A DNA stretch of 64,000 bases from Octopus vulgaris (lineage: Eukaryota). The notes under the pieces were generated by a model. That model ran no database searches, was not told where the DNA came from, and worked only from the letters and a program-made list of their open reading frames with translations. The DNA is taken from contig OX597818.1 in NCBI GenBank assembly GCA_951406725.2, positions 118,978,001-119,042,000 on the forward strand, given 5' to 3'. The translations under genes and the position numbers were made by a program. Below are positions 17,258 through 59,441 of this stretch, piece by piece; within the stretch, counting starts at the first letter, position 1; every line of letters starts with the position of its first letter.

Positions 17258-17742
17258 ATGTGTGTGTGTGTGTATGTGTGTATTGCGCCAAACTTTGCTT
17301 GAAACGTATAATTAGTATGTATAGAAAGTTGCATGAAATAACTGAATTTAAATAACGAACGGATAAATTTTTTAAAGCAAGACCTTCGAAAAGATTTACA
17401 CATACAGGTATGGATATGGAGAATGTGTAAAGTGTTTGTGTATCTTGGGGAAAATTAAATACCGTCACGTATAAATCTGTTAACATAAATCACTCTCAGT
17501 TATCCTATCAATTTTTAACATTCGCCGGTGAACATCAAATTCATTGTGATGCATATATACATGTCTGACCTCGATGGGCAGGAATACATATTTTAAGAGA
17601 CACATTTTCAGCATTTTCACAGATAAAATCTTAAGGACGAGAATGTTTGTAATTTCATGTTTAAATGAATAGCGTTACTTGCGTTTGTGTCTTTGTGTAT
17701 ATCTATCTATCTATCTATCTAAATATATATATATACACAAAC

Positions 17743-18146
17743 TTTAGAGGACTGACCACTAAAAGTGGACAGCCAGTATGCTAGATATAGACGTCAAAAT
17801 CGCCATTTTCCACGAAGAATGTGTTCTCAAGAAAAAAATCAGCAAAAAAACAAATTATAAAAATAAGCAAGACAAATGAAAATATACGAAATAAAAAAAA
17901 CATTGTCTATGTACTAAATAGTTTCAGTCGTTAATATTTACGTATATGGATACGGAAACATCTGCAGGATCATCAGCATAGATAATCGTTTTTTATTTCG
18001 TATATTTTCATTTGTCTCGCTTATTTTATACTTAGTTTTTTTTTTGTTGAATTTTTTCTTGAGAACACATTCTTCGAGGAAAATGGCGATTTTGACGTCT
18101 ATATCTAGCATACTGGCTGTCCACTTTTAGTGGTCAGTCCTCTAAA
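17743..18146. repeat. Long inverted repeat (arms 17743-17911 and 17977-18146) enclosing a hammerhead-like core on the - strand
   Basis: TTTAGAGGACTGACCACTAAAAGTGGACAGCCAGTATGCTAGATATAGACGTC... is mirrored by ...GACGTCTATATCTAGCATACTGGCTGTCCACTTTTAGTGGTCAGTCCTCTAAA. Confidence 0.92.
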
Positions 18147-18471
18147 TTTTGCATGTAAAATAATTTTAATCTTAAGAAGTAATCAATAATTTCACCAAGT
18201 AGAATTCGGTATGAAAAAAGGACCATTTCACGGTAAACTTAAGTAATACTTAATAAAAAGGGTTCAGCAAAGATTTGCTTTACCACATACCGAAGTTTAG
18301 AAATAGCAGCCAAAAATCTTAGCTATTTCTTCTACTTTAAAAATGAACTCCTAGAGAAACCAAAATACTTGAAAATAATTCACACAGGCAGAGAGTAAAG
18401 CAACGAAAATCAATCAATATCTGGTCATCCATGGACGCGCGTTTCAGGACTTATTCTTTGTAAGCCTAGTA

Positions 18472-18529
<58 letters not shown>

Positions 18530-18661: not shown

Positions 18662-19059
18662 TTACTTGTTTCAGTCATTTGACTGTTGCCATGCTGGAGC
18701 ACCGCCTTTAGTCGAGAAACTCAACCGTAGGACTTATTCTTTGTAAGCCTAGTACTTATTCTATCGGTCTTTTTTGCCGAACCGCTAACATACGGGGACG
18801 TTAACACACCAGCATCGTTTGTCAAGCGATATTGTGGGGACAAACACAGACACACAAACATATGCACACACATACATATGTATATATACATATATACGAC
18901 GGGCTTCTTTCAGTTTCCGTCTACCAAATCCACCCATAAAGCTTTGGTCGGCCTGAGGCTATAGTAGAAGACACTTGCCCAAGGTGTCACGCAGTGGGAC
19001 TGAATCAGGAACCATGTGGTTGATAAGCAAGCTACTTACCACATACCCACTCCTGGGCC
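18662..19059 (-). mobile_element. SINE family A
   Basis: Reverse complement of the 48305-type consensus, including tail TTTACTTGTTTCAGTCATTTGACTG..GCCATGCTGGAGCACCGCC. Confidence 0.85.
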
Positions 19060-36252: not shown

Positions 36253-39200
36253 TAAACACCGGGGACGTTTAAGATGTGAGAACGATAAAACAGTGCTCCG
36301 AAATCTATCCACAAACATCGAAAACAAAGACATCGTATGGAGCCAAAAATTTATTAACAAAGGATTGGACTATATCCGAGTAAATAATACTCATTGAAAT
36401 TTATTACTATTTACGAAACGAAATGATGTATTTTAACTCGATATCATCTCCACCTCTAACACGACACATGTAAAAAGTAAAATAATCAAAGAACTGAAAA
36501 CCACAGAGCTCAAAATGGACCACCGACCATACCTCCCAAAAATCAAAATAGACGAAACAACAACACCAATTATAAACAGCATAAACCTAGCCGTCACGGA
36601 ACTAATAGCCACTGAAACAAAAAGCGATATCACTGAGCTACATGACTTAGTATACGCAGCAGCCACTGCAGCCACAAAAGAAGCTGGATACACACTCAAA
36701 CCCATCCAAATAGGAGTACCACCACCCAAACAAACCCTGTGGATAAATAACATCCAAAACAAAATACAAAAAATGAGAAAAGATCAGTCGATTCTTAATG
36801 AAATCAGTAGACAATCAACGCTACTGAGCAACAAAAACAAAAAAAAAATACTCCGCAAATACATCACAGAAAAAGCTTTACCTGAGATAAAAGAAAAGCT
36901 AAAGCAAGATATCCTTGCCAAAGCACAAAGGATCCGCCGGTACGAGAAACGCCAGCACTTCTTTGAACAAAACAAAAAGTTCAACTCCAACCCCAAAAAG
37001 TTCTATCAAGAACTTGGCAAAAATAAAATAGAAATCACTGCAGCACCAACGGCAGAAGAAGTGGAAGAATTCTGGAGAGAAATATGGTCGGCGAACGAAT
37101 AACCAAAAAAAGGAGTATTAAAACAACAAACTCATCATCTGAGAAATTTGGACCACCATAACAACTGAAGAGGTCACCCAGGCACTGCAAAGACTAAGCA
37201 ACTGGAAGGCACCTGGGCATGACAAGATCCCCAACTTCTGGTTGAAATATCTAACAGGAATGCACAAAAAGCTGGCTGAAAACTTTAACAACATACTAGC
37301 AGAGCCAGAGACAATGCCTGCATGGCTCACGAAAGGGGAAAACCCTCTTAATTCCCAAATCAAATGAGACAGCAAAACCAGAAAACTACAGACCAATAAC
37401 CTGTCTCCCTCCAATGTACAAGGCATTTACTGCAGTGATATCGCAAAGGTTGAACAAGCACCTAGACGAAAACAACCTGTTGCTAGAAGAGCAGAAAGGA
37501 TGCCGCAAAGGCTCATATGGCTGTAAAGATCAACTAATGATTAATAAAGCCATAACTGAAGACAGCCACAGAAAGAAGAAGGGCCTCAGTATGGCCTGGA
37601 TCGACTACAAAAAGGCGTTTGATAGTATCCCCCACACATGGATCCTCGAAACACTAGCCATTAACAAAGTAGCACCAACGATTATAAAATTCATAGGACA
37701 CTCTATGAATAAATGGCAAACAGTCCTACACCTCCAAACAAAAGAGGGACTCATGAAAACCAAAGACATGCCCATTAGAAGAGGAATATTCCAGGGAGAC
37801 ACGCTCTCTCCACTCCTTTTCTGCTTGGCACTGTCAACTCTATCTGATATGCTAAATAGAACTGGATGCGGATATAAATGTTACGGCAAAACGATCAGTC
37901 ACCTTTTATATATGGATGACCTAAAACTATACGCTACAAATGACAAACAGCTGGAAACACTATTAAAGACAGTTCATGGATTTACCAAAGAAATAGATAT
38001 GAAATTTGGATTAGAAAAATGCGCCAAAGTAACCATGAAAAGTGGAAAGCTAGTTAAGAGTAGCAACATCACACTAGATAAAACCAATGAAATAAAAGAA
38101 TTAGACCAAAGCCAAACTTACAAATACTTAGGAATCCATGAACTAGATAAGACACAACACACACAAATGAAAGAGAAAATAAAAAAAGAATATTATAGAC
38201 GAGTTAGATCAATACTAAAAACAGAGCTCAATGCTAAAAACAAGATAATAGGTATTAACACTTTAGCTGTCCCAGTTATAAGTTACAGCTACAGTATCCT
38301 TAACTGGACACTAAATGAACTGACCAAGATAGATAGGAAAACAAGAAAAATAATGACAGGATCTAGGATGCATCACCCAAAATCTGACATAGAAAGACTA
38401 TATATAAAACGTATAGAAGGTGGTAGAGGCCTTATACAGCTGGAAAACCACTATAAAATAACCACCATAGGACTGCAAAAATATCTACTTCAGAAGGAAG
38501 GAAAACTGATACAAATAGCGGCAAAACACGAGCAAAACAAAAAACTGGTCTCAGTATTTAAGGAAGCTGACAAATACAAACAAGAAAACATACCACCTAA
38601 TAAATATGAAGAAGAAGAAGAAGAAGAAGAAGAAGAAGAAGAAGAAGAAGAAGAAGAAGAAGAAGAAGAAGAAGAAGATGAAGAAACAACAAAACCTATA
38701 AAAGAAATGAAATCCAAACTAAAAATAGAACAGCAACGAACCATGATAAAACGATGGCAAGAAAAGCCCCTTCATGGTAACTACTGAACTAAACTAAACT
38801 CAAAAGAAATAGACAAAGAAAAATCCCAGCAATGGTTGAGAAGCTCAGGACTCAAAGCAGAGACAGAGGGATTTTTTATTGCTGCACAAGGCCAAAGCCT
38901 CTCCACCAGAAATTATCAAAAACATGTAATGAAAAGAAATATAACAAGTAACTGCAGAATATGTGGAGATGGACAAGAAACAATAAATCATATTATCTCT
39001 AGCTTCCCAGTCCTAGCTAAGAAGGAATATATTCACAGGCATGACAGAGTTGGAACCTACATACACTAGAAGCTATGCCAACATGGAATAACAACAGAAA
39101 AAAGATGGTATAGGCACACACCAGAAAAGGTCACAGAAAACGAGAAAGCAACCATACTCTGGGATATGCCGATACTCACAGATAGAGAAATTAAGGCCAA

Positions 39201-50675: not shown

Positions 50676-53600
50676 TCAAGCTGGGTTTCTCACACCCACC
50701 TTTCTTTCTACTTCCTTCCATCTTTTCTCGTACACACCCCGCGGCAGGGTCCTCTTCTCCAGCCCCATTTTGCTCTTCAGATGATATCTGAAGTAAGTGA
50801 GCAAGCCGGGTCCGGAGATGAAGGACCCTATCGCGGCTCCTTCCATTCTCGTTCTCCACATGCATTCCTTTACCACTGCCACCGTGCAGTGGAAACATGC
50901 CTCACCTTCCTTCGAGAGTCCAGTTGGCGGTATCATCTTAATCATAGACTCAGCCGACAGCTGTACTCGTCCCAGATGGGACAACACGTGTTCTGCGTAA
51001 CTTATCAAGTCGGACAACTTCCGACAGTGAACAAAGGCGTGCTGGACGGTTTCATCGTCCAACCCGCACCTTGGACACGTCGGTGGCACTTGAACTCCGT
51101 GCCGCGATAACTTCTCGCGAACAGGTAAAGCATTCCTGTAGCACTGCCAGGCCAGGGATCTTTGGAAATTATCCAAATACCCCGACCTGAAAGTTTTTTT
51201 AAACAGGTTGGCGAGCTGGTCTTCATCAAACCCCAGAGCCCCTCCTAGGACGTCGTCATTTTTTACCTCCACCAGCCCTCTATAAAATACCGAGGTGGTA
51301 TTTCCGCAGCCGGCCTTACCCGTCTTGTGGATCAGCGTGAGTGCCTGTCGGCACTCTTTTTGCCATGGAGTCAGTTTCCATCTTTTGATGTAACCGGGTT
51401 TAAAATTAACTAAGGAGGCCGGTCTCGGGAAAAATCCCTCTGCCAGCGGACTCCACACCTTATCACCCTCCAGGTGGTGCCAGAGGTGCCTTAGCCTCAA
51501 CGCATGTCTGCGCATCATCAACCAAGGCATCCCTAACCCGCCCTTTAACGGTTCTTGGCAGCAAACGGATCGTCTCACAAGTGGCTTTCCTCCTTTCCAC
51601 AAAAAGCGGAAAAGGATTCGTTCCAACTTGTTAAGCCATGAATCGGGGCAAGGGACAACGGTCAGGCGGTAGGTGATTACAGATGCAATAAACATCTGCA
51701 CCACCTCCGCCCTTCCTTTCAGGGACAGAGACCTTCCGGACCAGGTCCGTACTATGGCCTCCACCCTGCTCGTCACCTCGCTCCAGTTCTTCTCCGTTTG
51801 GGAGTCTGGTCCAAACCAAACTCCCAGCAACTTAACAGGGCCATCCGTCCAGTGTCCCACGACACTGGACGATATCGGCTTGCTCCTCCAGGTGCCGAGG
51901 CGCAAGCCAACCGATTTGTCCTTGTTAACCTTTGCTCCTGCCACCGCCTCGTATCCTCTGATAACCTCCTCCACACAAGGTAGTTGGGCCTCTTTGGACA
52001 CGATGAGGGTGACGTCATCCGCGTAAGCAGTCACCGTCCTCCCACCTCCGATTTCATCCGAGTTACTCCCCAGCCTCTCCAACTTTCGCAGCAGTGGCTC
52101 AAGAGCCAATACGTACAAAAGTGGTGACAAGGGGCACCCCTGACGCACTGAACACTTGATCGAAAACGGTTCCGTTAGGTAACCGTTTATCTGGACGGTG
52201 GACTTGATGCCGCTATACATAGCGGAGATCCACCCGCGAAATTCAGGGCCCAGCCCAGTCGCTTCGAGGACCGTCGCCAGGTACCCATGGTCTACCCTAT
52301 CGAAGGCTTTACTTTGGTCTAAATGGACCATTACCCCACCTTTGCCGGCTAATTTACCCACCCTATCTAAGGTGTAGCGTATAAGGTGAAGATTGTCCTG
52401 GATCGACCTGCCTGGAATTGCACATGTCTGTGCTCTCCCTACAAGTTTCTCCACGACAACCGTCAACCTTTTTGCTAACACCTTGGCCAGAATCTTTAAC
52501 TCTACATTAAGTAGAGTTATGGGCCTGTAGTTACTAATATTATCCCCCTTGCTCGGGTCTTTCTGGATTAGCGTCACCACTCCCCGGCTTACAGAACTGG
52601 GGATTCTCCCATTCTGCTGCCAGTTCGTGTAGACGCCTGCCAGTATTCCCCCGAACAAGTCTGGCATACTTTGGTAAAACTCATAGGGCAGACCATCCAA
52701 CCCCGGCGACTTCTCCCCGGCGCATCCGGCCAGTATCTCCTTTATCTCCGCGGGAGTGATCGCTCCCTCACAGCACTCCACTTCACGCCCCGCGAGCCGC
52801 GGTCCGCCGGCCAGGAAGTCCTTTAAGGCCCTCCCCCGATCCAGCGAACCACCACCCCCGAACACGCGAGCGAAATGCTGGTGAAGAAACTTTTGCATCT
52901 CCTCCTGTCCATAGATCTTTTGTCCCTGTTCGTCAGTCAAAGATTTAATTGAGGCTCTATTGCCTCTCTTACTCTCCACACGACGGGCCCATACGGCCAC
53001 GTTAATACCTTCTCGTTTCCCAGCACGCAGCTTAGCTCTGACTCTGCAACCTTCGTACTTGGAGTTAAGGTGACGGTACAATACCGTCCTTGCCGCCAAC
53101 ACTCCGGATGCAGAGCCAGCTTCCATTGCCTCGTCTAGATTCTTGACTAAATCGCCCTCTAGACTAGCCCTATCTATCCTTAGCTGATTGCTAAATCTGA
53201 CGGACTCTAAACGAATGGCTCTTTTGAGGGCGTGCCACCATCTATTGTTAATGATGGTGCCACACAATGCCCTCTGAACTAACACCTTAATCCGGGTACG
53301 GAAGTCTTCACAATTCAAAATAGCCTTGTTCAGCTTCCAGTACCCGGGTCCCTGTCTATGACACTTGTCTAATTGCACCTCACACGTCACAAATTTGTGA
53401 TCCGAGTAAGGTACAATATGAAATTGTGGACAACTAAACGTATCCTTATCTCTTTTCTTAATAAATATCCTATCTAGATACGATCTGTGTGAGCCGTCGT
53501 TGTTACTCCACGTCCACTGTGGAACGCTCGGCTCATCCAGTCGGTAACGGTCCACTAGATCAAAGCTCTCTAGTAGACCCTTGAGGCTAGGGTTCCCCTT

Positions 53601-54065
53601 CCTATTGGTTGAGCCAACACTGTCGATGTGCGCTTCAAGGACAGTGTTAAAGTCCCCTACTAGGATTACTGTTTTCGACGTCGCTAAAAAGGGCTCCAGG
53701 TTCCGGAAAAAACCCGTCTGTCTACCCTCGTTCGGGGCGTAGACAGCTACCAACCTGAAGGACTGTTTACTTACGTGAGTCACATCCAGGACAACCAGCC
53801 TGCCTTCTGGGTCCAGAAAGACAGTACTTACCTGCAAGTCCAAGCTCTTCCTGATGAAGACTGCCACGCCTCTGCCTCTTCCTCGGCTAGGAGAAATAAA
53901 TTTCTCGAAACCATTTAGAAGAGGCGAGAACGCTTGGGTCTCGCTCATCTTGGACTCGGTTGCAATAGCAATATCTACACTGTGTGTCGTGAGGTCGTTC
54001 AGGAAACAAATTTGTTTCCGTTTCGACCCCATTCCACGTACATTTATACAGCCCAGCTTAGCCAT
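50676..54065 (-). CDS. ORF2p: APE endonuclease, reverse transcriptase and C-terminal zinc finger (1129 aa), Tx1/L1 clade
   Basis: CINVRG, VYAPN, ILVGDFN, SYLDRIF, YSDH, GPGYWKLN, KSPGLDGLP, NYRPITLLN, LDQSKAFDRVDH, VRQGCPLSPLLY, YADD, GGLG, CPRC..ETVQHAFVHC. Uninterrupted. Confidence 0.95.
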   Translation of the reverse strand: MAKLGCINVRGMGSKRKQICFLNDLTTHSVDIAIATESKMSETQAFSPLLNGFEKFISPSRGRGRGVAVFIRKSLDLQVSTVFLDPEGRLVVLDVTHVSKQSFRLVAVYAPNEGRQTGFFRNLEPFLATSKTVILVGDFNTVLEAHIDSVGSTNRKGNPSLKGLLESFDLVDRYRLDEPSVPQWTWSNNDGSHRSYLDRIFIKKRDKDTFSCPQFHIVPYSDHKFVTCEVQLDKCHRQGPGYWKLNKAILNCEDFRTRIKVLVQRALCGTIINNRWWHALKRAIRLESVRFSNQLRIDRASLEGDLVKNLDEAMEAGSASGVLAARTVLYRHLNSKYEGCRVRAKLRAGKREGINVAVWARRVESKRGNRASIKSLTDEQGQKIYGQEEMQKFLHQHFARVFGGGGSLDRGRALKDFLAGGPRLAGREVECCEGAITPAEIKEILAGCAGEKSPGLDGLPYEFYQSMPDLFGGILAGVYTNWQQNGRIPSSVSRGVVTLIQKDPSKGDNISNYRPITLLNVELKILAKVLAKRLTVVVEKLVGRAQTCAIPGRSIQDNLHLIRYTLDRVGKLAGKGGVMVHLDQSKAFDRVDHGYLATVLEATGLGPEFRGWISAMYSGIKSTVQINGYLTEPFSIKCSVRQGCPLSPLLYVLALEPLLRKLERLGSNSDEIGGGRTVTAYADDVTLIVSKEAQLPCVEEVIRGYEAVAGAKVNKDKSVGLRLGTWRSKPISSSVVGHWTDGPVKLLGVWFGPDSQTEKNWSEVTSRVEAIVRTWSGRSLSLKGRAEVVQMFIASVITYRLTVVPCPDSWLNKLERILFRFLWKGGKPLVRRSVCCQEPLKGGLGMPWLMMRRHALRLRHLWHHLEGDKVWSPLAEGFFPRPASLVNFKPGYIKRWKLTPWQKECRQALTLIHKTGKAGCGNTTSVFYRGLVEVKNDDVLGGALGFDEDQLANLFKKTFRSGYLDNFQRSLAWQCYRNALPVREKLSRHGVQVPPTCPRCGLDDETVQHAFVHCRKLSDLISYAEHVLSHLGRVQLSAESMIKMIPPTGLSKEGEACFHCTVAVVKECMWRTRMEGAAIGSFISGPGLLTYFRYHLKSKMGLEKRTLPRGVYEKRWKEVERKVGVRNPA

Positions 54066-54093
54066 TGTGGGTGAGAGAAGGAAATGTATATAC

Positions 54094-55517
54094 TCACGGT
54101 TGCGAGAGGGAGCATGACAGTTTCAATCTGCCTGCTTCCCTTTCTTCCGTTGCTGCAGGGTTCTTGACCGGCGTTGCCACTGGGCTCTGGGTGGGTGTGG
54201 TTGCCGGGGTTATTGCCAGTTTACCCTCCATTACCTCCTTGGTTACATCTCTAATAAGACGGTTCCTCAGGTGTTCCTGAAGAACCTCCTCCTTCCACTC
54301 GTTCTCCCCTACCTTCGCGAAACGAGCGGTCGCCTTCCCATCTGAGGTTCTACTATACAGTGGAAATCTCGCGAGTTTGCAGCATTTGTAAACTTTTTCA
54401 TTTTTTTCATCAAAGGCTATAATTCTTTCGTTTTTCGATATGCACTTTTTGATGTCTTGTTTTATGGGGAGGGGTTTGGCAAACTGTTTTCCAATGAAAA
54501 CAGTGCCATGGGGGTAGGGTTGGGGGATTTGTTTAATGTGTGTGTCTGCTGTGTTTGTTGTTTTTTTCCTTGTTTGGGGAGGGGAGTCCTGGGTGTTCTC
54601 TTTTTTTTTTTGTGTGTGACTTGTGTGTAGTCCATTGGTTCTTTTGAATCCGTTTTCGTTTCCGTACTTGTCTTCTTCATTTGGTTGTTCTTGCTTGTTT
54701 CCTCCCCTTCAGTGACAGGTACACTTTGAGGAGGCGTTTCTTCTGTTCTTTTTTTCTTAATGCAGTTGGACCGGACGTGACCCTTCTCTCCACACTTGAA
54801 GCATCTGGGTCTACGTCCCTCCACCGACACTCTCATGGACGTGCCGTCCTCATTAAAAATTCTGTCAGGCAGGCTCTCCAAGATCTTGTTCTCTGCCTGT
54901 ACGAGGAGTTCCAAGGTCTGACCCTTCCAGCGTACCACTTCCTTCCTTCTCATTTGCAGAATTGAAATTTCCCGCTCCATGTTGTGTAGTACCGCCGCTG
55001 CCACCCACATGATGTCGTACCCTCTGGGTATGTCATCTACCACTAACTTTGCAGTTCGTTTCCCCATATACGAGGGTAACAACATGATGTCGTCGCTTTT
55101 TAAGGTTAACGACGACACCTCCTTCGCCACTTCTGCCGTGTCGAAGTGCACCTCTACCGTAGCACTACGTGCGCCTCTCGCGATGTGACGAATTCTGTCC
55201 CACACCGGGGACAGGCACTTCTCAACAATTTCGTTTTTCGCGTCCATAATCTTTTTTTCCTTAAAGCTATACACTTTATAAGTTACAATCCTTTCCTTGA
55301 TTTCTTGCACTTTCGCTTGCGGCGGTACCAGCCTTATCTCTCCTCCTTCCACCTTTACAAGATTCCTGTATTCATACAGCTGTTCGATCTTGAATTCGAC
55401 CTCTATCATAGCGCCGCCCACCGCGGCCGAGAATGACTGTTTGGTTACTGGGTTTTCCATGGTTTCACCTTTTCCCATCACGGGAAAATCGTCCTTCGAC
55501 GTTAAGTCGAACTCCAT
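54094..55517 (-). CDS. ORF1p (gag-like, CCHC zinc knuckle) with a -1 frameshift, most simply at the A11 run (54601-54611)
   Basis: ATG at 55517 (MEFDLT), SFSAAV, CFKCGEKGHVRSNC. Zero frame stops at 54462; the -1 frame stays open from the A run (ENTQDSPPQTRKK...LSCSLSQP*) to TGA at 54094-54096, 28 nt before the ORF2 ATG. Confidence 0.8.
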
Positions 55518-56481
55518 CACCTCAAAGGTAGCAAATTTCAAATAATACAAAATTTTCTGCCCCGTAGGGCGAAAATCACCGTTTCACAACGGGCACTGTT
55601 CAAAGCAGTTGGTACAAACAATAAATTCACAACTTCGACTCTCTTAAATGGGAGCAGCAATTTTCTCACAACGCAAACAGAAAAATAACGCAATTAACAG
55701 AAGCGGTACTCAGTAGAATCCTTAATGCTAGCTAATTAGCAAATAATCTAATGTAAAAGCCGTGCACACCTCCATCTGGACTATTCCATTTTTGCACTTA
55801 AATTTTATTTTTTTATTTATTCCCATTCATGTGAAACCACTGATTCAAGTTCAAGTCATTGATGCAATTTTATACCAATTGCTATATTTTTACTTCTGTT
55901 ATGTTACGATAATATTATACTTTAGTTTGATTTTAATTATTACTTACTACATATAATTCAATTGTTATTATTTTTGCTGTTAAAGTGAAAATATCTGACA
56001 TAAAATAGGGAAATATTTTTGTTTCACTTTTAACACGTAATACTGAAATAGTGGAGAAGATATGATATTGCTATGGGCTCGCTCTAGGCAAGAAGTTGAA
56101 CATTTGTTTTTTTCCCATGAAACTACATGGACCCTAAGTAAGGCAATGTGTAAAATTTGAATGAAATTGGTTGTGTAGTTCTCGAGTTTTAGGGAAACAC
56201 ACAGACAGACAGACAAACACACACACATTTTCAGTTTTATATATATAAAGATATAACGATGTGTGTGCGTGTGTGTGCATGTGCGTGCTTGTGCATCCTT
56301 GTGCAGATCTTCCCACCACCGCTTACCAAACGGTGTTGGTTGGTTTATGGCGACTCAAATAGTGGTGCGGCAAAAGTGTTCCATACAATAAGCACCAAGA
56401 TTTACAAATAAGTATTGGAATCGATTTGATCGATTGATGTCTTTCAAGGCGCCCCACCACCACCACCACACACACACAAAA

Positions 56482-59285: not shown

Positions 59286-59441
59286 GAGAGGGATGATCAC
59301 TATGTGGACAACCCTTATGCTAGAAGTAGATCTGCTATGGCCTTACTACTAATACATTTTCTTGAGAACATTTCTTAGTGGTAAGGCCATAGCGGATCTT
59401 CTTCCTGCATAATGGATGTCCACTTGGTGGTCATCCCTCTC
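59286..59441. repeat. Imperfect inverted repeat (~67-bp arms) next to (TA)n
   Basis: GAGAGGGATGATCACTATGTGGACA...GCTATGGCCTTACTACTAA / TTAGTGGTAAGGCCATAGC...TGTCCACTTGGTGGTCATCCCTCTC. Confidence 0.88.

What the first reader, a model, noticed from the sequence alone, without database searches (positions are those of the whole stretch)
17743..18146. Hammerhead core whose stem I is a ~170-bp inverted repeat
Seen on the - strand: arm...CUAUG-CUGAUGA (17976-17970)-[44 nt]-GAA-ACUA-UU-UAGU-A-CAUAG...arm. The catalytic core, stem III and a GUA cleavage triplet (17914-17912) fill the spacer exactly, and the long arms are stem I. The stem II region has a distal hairpin (AUGUUU-C-CGUAU-CCAU-AUACG-U-AAAUAU), but its base is unpaired in this copy, so this copy may be inactive. 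Inference: a fold-back Penelope-derived or retrozyme-like element whose transcript would be a long dsRNA opened by self-cleavage, a possible ADAR or Dicer substrate if the host is a highly editing cephalopod.
Basis: partly seen in the sequence, partly recalled or inferred. Interest (0 to 1): 0.72.

Follow-up and report, generated by a model that had tools for sequence, protein, structure and literature searches.

The report
Two-armed hammerhead retrozyme insertion
This is one damaged copy of a common 535-base non-coding jumping element that carries a predicted self-cutting hammerhead RNA; its mirror-image shape is the family's usual head-to-head insertion pattern, likely made by copying from both cut DNA ends, and not a purpose-built double-stranded RNA.

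Summary
In detail: arms 17738-17911 and 17977-18151 flank a type I hammerhead core. The element is one copy of a ~535-nt non-coding, (TA)n-targeting repeat (at least 333 exact motif copies; tandem dimers exist), a Penelope-type non-LTR retrozyme. The family ribozyme is under selection: core 2.9% vs arm 7.8% variation, compensatory changes in stems II and III. This copy has 2 of 4 proximal stem II pairs broken and has lost the natural stem I internal loop, so it is likely inactive. The fold-back is not the element's design: 81 of 160 sampled insertions are head-to-head with scattered junctions, and the junction at stem I occurs once in the genome. It is best read as a 5-nt microhomology join. 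In 49 of 50 classifiable head-to-head insertions the two arms start at two different fixed sites 95 nt apart, as expected if both target strands prime. The scan noted this two-site rule before on other DNA (e1-10322590, e1-8824735). A pre-set test for arm ends at the cut site was not passed (3 vs 2.4-3.5 expected). No usable RNA data; no autonomous partner found.

The parts
17700..17735 (.). (TA)n/(TAGA)n target microsatellite at the outer end of arm A
   Evidence: sequence; same target at most family 3' ends
17736..17911 (-). Arm A: monomer positions 360-539, from the predicted cut site to fixed 3' end site A
   Evidence: site A is the end of 42 segments in sample 1
17907..17911 (-). Hammerhead stem I 3' strand (CAUAG); predicted cleavage between 17912 and 17911, after GUA 17914-17912
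   Evidence: cleavage position inferred from hammerhead numbering, not assayed
17913..17922 (-). Stem III, palindromic in the consensus; one loop change here
   Evidence: U-A to C-G double change in 29 of 101 aligned copies
17922..17925 (-). Core strand GAAA (G12 A13 A14 A15.1)
17926..17969 (-). Stem II: U.U at the base, 4-bp proximal helix (2 pairs broken in this copy), 3x3 internal loop, 12-bp distal hairpin
17970..17976 (-). Core strand CUGAUGA
   Evidence: position 7 is the only variable core position, 12%
17977..17981 (-). Junction: 5-nt microhomology that is both the natural stem I 5' strand and the inner end of the inverted arm
   Evidence: one of 446 junction classes with >=5 nt microhomology on the monomer
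17977..18173 (+). Arm B: inverted copy of monomer 360 to about 560; runs through site A into about 22-27 nt of the 95-nt tail, outer end lost
   Evidence: B-type assignment inferred because the arm passes site A
18172..18445 (-). 5'- and 3'-truncated copy of a second hammerhead repeat family (577-nt monomer), abutting arm B

Best explanation
The locus is a single, decayed head-to-head insertion of a ~535-nt non-coding hammerhead retroelement, likely written by a borrowed Penelope-like reverse transcriptase-endonuclease from both cut target strands. Shown: the monomer, tandem dimers, (TA)n targets, two fixed 3' ends A and B 95 nt apart, and A+B pairing of the two arms. Inferred steps: (1) a multimeric or circular RNA is the template, since copies read across both the cut site and the monomer ends; (2) both strands of a TA tract are nicked, one primes at site A and the other at site B; (3) the two cDNAs stop at variable places and are joined by microhomology; (4) here one cDNA ended at the start of stem I 3' and annealed through the 5-nt stem I complementarity to the other, which leaves the core as the spacer; (5) later mutation and a deletion at the outer end of arm B. 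The family ribozyme is predicted to cleave weakly as a monomer and better as a dimer, by analogy with axolotl HHR_Amex2; this copy is predicted not to cleave.
For: Family size: 234 and 333 exact motif matches, 2177 first-look candidates. Monomer 535 nt; hammerheads 532-540 nt apart in dimers. Head-to-head: 43 of 88 and 40 of 74 insertions, 81 of 160 after removing one duplicated pair from each sample. Outer ends: A+B 49, A+A 1, B+B 0 among 50 classifiable, P 9e-14 against a coin toss; the other 31 had at least one end that could not be assigned. Junction positions scattered over the monomer. Arm B holds tail sequence absent from arm A, which a simple snap-back copy of arm A cannot give. Core 2.9% vs arm 7.8% non-consensus, P 0.0006; 53 cells with double changes vs 17.1 in shuffles. 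Literature: inverted 5'-truncated copy plus one-sided tail is standard for PLEs (PMC8557442, PMC3846280); PAc cleaves and extends both strands and starts at two internal sites bounding the tail (PMC11167929).
Against: No autonomous partner with shared sequence was found among 25 GIY-YIG loci and 8 longer stretches, so the enzyme is inferred from architecture. The tail is 95 nt, not the 30-40 nt described. Arm B's outer end is missing, so this copy's own A+B status is inferred. No cleavage assay and no RNA evidence. The consensus monomer's minimum-energy fold pairs the core strand with stem III instead of forming stem III, so activity of the monomer is uncertain. The covariation shuffle ignores relatedness; the double changes are a few subfamily events counted many times.
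Confidence: 0.82

Rival explanations
1. The junction records ribozyme action: arm B ran off the 5' end of a self-cleaved RNA, and its last five bases then annealed to the other cDNA through stem I.
For: Arm B ends exactly at the first base after the predicted cut. Ends within 0-3 nt of the cut: 5 vs 2.3 expected in sample 1 (P 0.08) and 5 vs 1.5 in sample 2 (P 0.018). Four of 333 end exactly there vs 1.7 (P 0.09).
Against: The test set in advance on the 233 unseen matches gave 3 vs 2.4-3.5 expected (P 0.43-0.68). With 5 nt of microhomology the true end could lie anywhere from the cut to 5 nt inside. This copy's own stem II is damaged and both arms share diagnostic changes. About 95% of copies read across the cut site.
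Confidence: 0.25
2. A dedicated fold-back element whose transcript is a long dsRNA opened by self-cleavage and processed by ADAR or Dicer.
For: Any read-through transcript would form a ~170-bp duplex, MFE -253 kcal/mol. About half of the family's insertions are inverted and would do the same.
Against: The configuration is a singleton. Arms have drifted apart by about 4% with indels, as much as each from the consensus. Stem II is broken and the stem I internal loop is lost. The only repeated junctions seen were duplicates with shared flanks.
Confidence: 0.04
3. Self-priming (snap-back) at a hairpin, as proposed for PLE inverted repeats in PMC3846280, or a later DNA-level fold-back duplication, produced the inverted arm.
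For: The junction here is at a self-complementary stem; a few other copies have near-symmetric junctions (L116 472/473, L147 7/5, L299 246/246).
Against: Most junctions are asymmetric; arm B carries tail sequence that arm A lacks; a copy-back would give A+A or B+B ends, seen 1 of 50 times.
Confidence: 0.1

Closest known systems
Metazoan non-LTR retrozymes (Cervera and de la Pena 2020, PMC7229834, passages read; Li, Clavereau, Pollet bioRxiv 10.64898/2026.07.22.740005, part 1 of 5 read)
   Same: Non-coding, low-GC repeat with one type I hammerhead per unit, palindromic stem III, monomers and tandem dimers; U.U at the base of stem II as in axolotl HHR_Amex2, which self-cleaved 22% in one hour as a monomer and better as a dimer.
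   Different: Unit of 535 nt (150-450 reported); mostly dispersed partial copies rather than long arrays; stem II extended to 4 + 12 bp; circular RNA and cleavage not shown here.
Insertion units of EN+ Penelope-like elements (Arkhipova et al. 2013, PMC3846280, passages read; Craig et al. 2021, PMC8557442, passages read)
   Same: 5' truncation, partial tandems, adjacent inverted 5'-truncated copy in head-to-head orientation, tail at one end only, (TA)n preference, hammerhead in the repeat.
   Different: No RT/GIY-YIG ORF; tail 95 nt instead of 30-40; the 2013 paper explains the inversions by self-priming, whereas the end pairing here points to two primers.
PAc (Poseidon of Anolis) in vitro system (Frangieh et al. 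2024, PMC11167929, parts 1-2 of 4 read)
   Same: Two internal RT start sites bounding the tail, AT-rich target, both strands cleaved and extended, hammerhead cleavage not needed for insertion.
   Different: That paper saw no difference in start site between top and bottom strands; here the two arms of one insertion nearly always use different sites.
Minimal PLE hammerheads (Cervera and de la Pena 2014, PMC4209133, parts 1-2 of 4 read)
   Same: Palindromic helix III, long helix II, pairs of motifs 100-700 bp apart on opposite strands.
   Different: No G10.1-C11.1 pair in this family; helix III has 4 potential pairs.

Membership tests
Type I hammerhead ribozyme | Core CUGANGA, GAAA, UH in the standard order | tested here: met
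   12 core positions 1-5% variable, N7 12%
Type I hammerhead ribozyme | Stems I-III paired, with compensatory changes (family) | tested here: met
   95.4% of cells paired; double changes at stem III (29 and 4 of 101) and distal stem II (10, 4, 3, 2)
Type I hammerhead ribozyme | Stem II paired in this copy | tested here: not met
   2 of 4 proximal pairs broken, pair probabilities 0-0.49
Type I hammerhead ribozyme | G10.1-C11.1 (R-Y) pair | tested here: not met
   U.U in the consensus; precedent with activity in HHR_Amex2 (PMC7229834)
Type I hammerhead ribozyme | Self-cleavage | not testable with these tools
   needs an assay
Non-LTR retrozyme | Non-coding repeat with at least two consecutive units each with a complete hammerhead | tested here: met
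   L034, L143 and others, spacing 532-540 nt; no ORF search was run on the monomer itself
Non-LTR retrozyme | Expression as linear and circular RNA monomers | not testable with these tools
   only contigs of runs not on record as RNA
Penelope-like element insertion | Head-to-head inverted 5'-truncated copy with one-sided tail and microsatellite target | tested here: met
Penelope-like element insertion | Sequence shared with the pLTR of an autonomous RT + GIY-YIG element | tested here: inconclusive
   no shared sequence in 25 of 148 GIY-YIG hits fetched, plus longer stretches; other PLE families not examined
Autonomous Penelope-like element | RT and GIY-YIG ORF | tested here: not met
   no such ORF near the locus; units abut directly in dimers

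The most novel reading that the evidence does not exclude
Head-to-head Penelope-type insertions are the genomic record of one enzyme dimer priming from both target nicks, each at a different fixed internal start site (49 of 50 classifiable cases). This would explain the inverted repeat and the one-sided tail together and replace the published self-priming proposal; in a small minority of copies, possibly this one, an arm runs off at the ribozyme cut and joins through stem I.
Probability: 0.55. Interest if true: 0.5.

Novelty: new member of a known kind. Interest (0 to 1): 0.27.

Why it matters
The locus itself is an ordinary decayed copy. The family is a further retrozyme with good covariation support and an unusual U.U stem II base that can be assayed. 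The strict A+B pairing of arm ends bears on how Penelope-like elements make inverted repeats with one-sided tails, which PMC8557442 lists as unexplained, and it is directly testable in the PAc system. Two searches did not list a paper stating this rule, but the scan has recorded it several times already.

Tried and rejected
Stem I as a junction hot spot: 9 vs 3.1 5' ends at the stem I 5' strand in sample 1 (post hoc) did not replicate, 0 vs 2.2. Cut-site excess: pre-set test not passed. Snap-back copy of arm A: rejected because arm B holds extra tail. Assembly artefact: unlikely since the arms differ at 7 of 171 aligned positions plus indels; short-read contigs covered the unique left flank in three other runs but none spanned the element. 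Autonomous partner: a young RT + GIY-YIG family with a 781-aa frame and others share no sequence with the monomer. Expression: no RNA holder listed; contigs of five runs only guessed to be RNA hold pieces of the family, which is no evidence either way. Rfam: only AT-rich hairpin matches below gathering score. One search used a misregistered structure string and is void; one search is the valid count. Left out of the 101-row alignment: 8 of 108 extracted copies (large deletions, or the second arm of the same insertion); the window copy was added. Left out of sample 2: 4 non-family matches, the window locus, and 8 of 78 listed places (six tandem duplicates of L247, one already held as L005, and none other intended). 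L080 was first mis-called by my extension script and re-called.

Full report
Observation. The arms align with 164 matches and 7 mismatches. The window is rich in microsatellites and retroelement remnants and shows no host gene near the locus by ORF listing. The genome has 2.8 Gb in 227 contigs; earlier scan notes call it octopus-like, which I did not verify.

Family. A DNA search gave 2177 first-look candidates, 40 scored; most match only the hammerhead plus the 3' arm. Upstream of the core the other copies carry a different, shared sequence, and the sequence after the arm leads back to it, giving a 535-nt unit. Exact motifs occur 234 times (natural 5' context) and 333 times (start of the 3' arm). 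Hammerheads 532-540 nt apart show tandem dimers. 3' ends fall at two fixed sites, A (42 segments) and B (43 segments), 95 nt apart, followed mostly by (TA)n.

Ribozyme. On 101 aligned copies the structure has 95.4% paired cells and 53 cells with double changes against 17.1 in shuffles; slid controls pair 25-48%. Stem III U-A becomes C-G in 29 copies. These are a few subfamily events counted many times. In the sample chosen by a motif outside the core, the 12 core positions vary 2.9% on average, arm positions 7.8% (P 0.0006), and position 7 is the only variable core site. The natural stem I is 5 bp, a 4x4 internal loop and 6 bp; stem II is U.U, 4 bp, a 3x3 loop and 12 bp. A U.U base of stem II is known from the weakly active axolotl HHR_Amex2 (PMC7229834, passages). 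The consensus monomer's lowest-energy fold pairs the core strand with stem III, in line with a ribozyme that needs a dimer or protein help (inference). In this copy two proximal stem II pairs are broken and the stem I internal loop is replaced by the arm; two of its changes are shared with L128, so part of the damage predates this insertion.

The fold-back. The arm-to-core junction is found once with an exact pattern; of 5 matches with two mismatches, only the window has this layout; a junction in distal stem I gave 0. Head-to-head insertions are common: 43 of 88 in sample 1 (98 of the first 100 listed places of 333) and 40 of 74 in sample 2 (variant motifs), 81 of 160 after removing one duplicated pair each. 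Their inner junctions are scattered. Their outer ends are A+B in 49, A+A in 1 and B+B in 0 of 50 classifiable cases; 31 had an end that could not be assigned. Arm B here passes site A and keeps part of the tail, then abuts a second hammerhead repeat whose own end is also missing, which suggests a later deletion. The junction has 5 nt of microhomology, seen in 0.9% of random pairs but offered by 446 junction classes on the monomer.

Does the junction mark the cut? Arm B ends at the first base after the predicted cleavage, so I tested 5' ends. Sample 1: 5 vs 2.3 expected within 0-3 nt; sample 2: 5 vs 1.5; a test fixed in advance on the 233 unseen matches: 3 vs 2.4-3.5. A small excess is not excluded but is not shown. 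A cluster at the stem I 5' strand did not replicate.

Mechanism. Best fit: a PLE-type enzyme nicks both strands of a TA tract, primes at sites A and B of a multimeric or circular RNA, and the two cDNAs are joined by microhomology. PAc cleaves and extends both strands and starts at two internal sites bounding the tail (PMC11167929). Inverted copies with a one-sided tail are standard PLE anatomy (PMC8557442; PMC3846280), the latter proposing self-priming, which fits the A+B rule poorly. The genome holds many GIY-YIG elements (148 matches of 150 scored), one with RT and GIY-YIG domains in a long frame, but none of those fetched shares sequence with the monomer.

Novelty. The family is a new member of the non-LTR retrozymes with PLE-type ends. 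Searches for hammerhead or retrozyme with octopus or cephalopod listed no description of it, and no paper held all five terms for two-strand head-to-head priming. I reached the A+B count in the same turn in which the scan's notes showed that earlier agents had described the same rule in other families; those notes are not independent support, and they mean this locus adds a further example rather than a first sighting. Verdict: real, explained, low to moderate interest.

Noticed in passing
window 18172-18445 (-); full unit in L181: Second hammerhead repeat family, 577-nt monomer, G-C at the base of a long stem II, palindromic stem III, GUC cut triplet, also ending in (TA)n and with inverted copies; 2413 first-look candidates.
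   Followed up: partly
L210-L214 (e.g. G000:C16:20834900-20840200): Young RT + GIY-YIG family, copies 98-99% identical, about 4.8-kb unit with direct terminal repeats of about 500 nt, a 781-aa frame with a Cys-rich linker (Neptune-like by recall) and an upstream frame; my hammerhead pattern found no canonical motif in its repeat.
   Followed up: partly
L215 (G000:C14:47994800-47998000): Another GIY-YIG element flanked by 766-nt 100% identical inverted repeats, each with a CCGAAGA-type hammerhead-like motif.
   Followed up: no
window 50676-55583 (-): Apparently intact two-ORF LINE (373 aa and 1148 aa frames).
   Followed up: no
window 36437-38787 (+): Broken RT-like frames (221 and 495 aa) with inserted trinucleotide runs.
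   Followed up: no
window 18446-18476 and 18729-18759: 31-nt exact direct repeat belonging to a common short repeat that often neighbours the family in TA tracts.
   Followed up: no
window 59357-59440: Weak (72%, 90 nt) match to the arm, possibly an older relative.
   Followed up: no
L093 and L151: Two head-to-head copies on different contigs with the same junction and about 870 nt of shared sequence including flanks: duplicated after insertion.
   Followed up: yes
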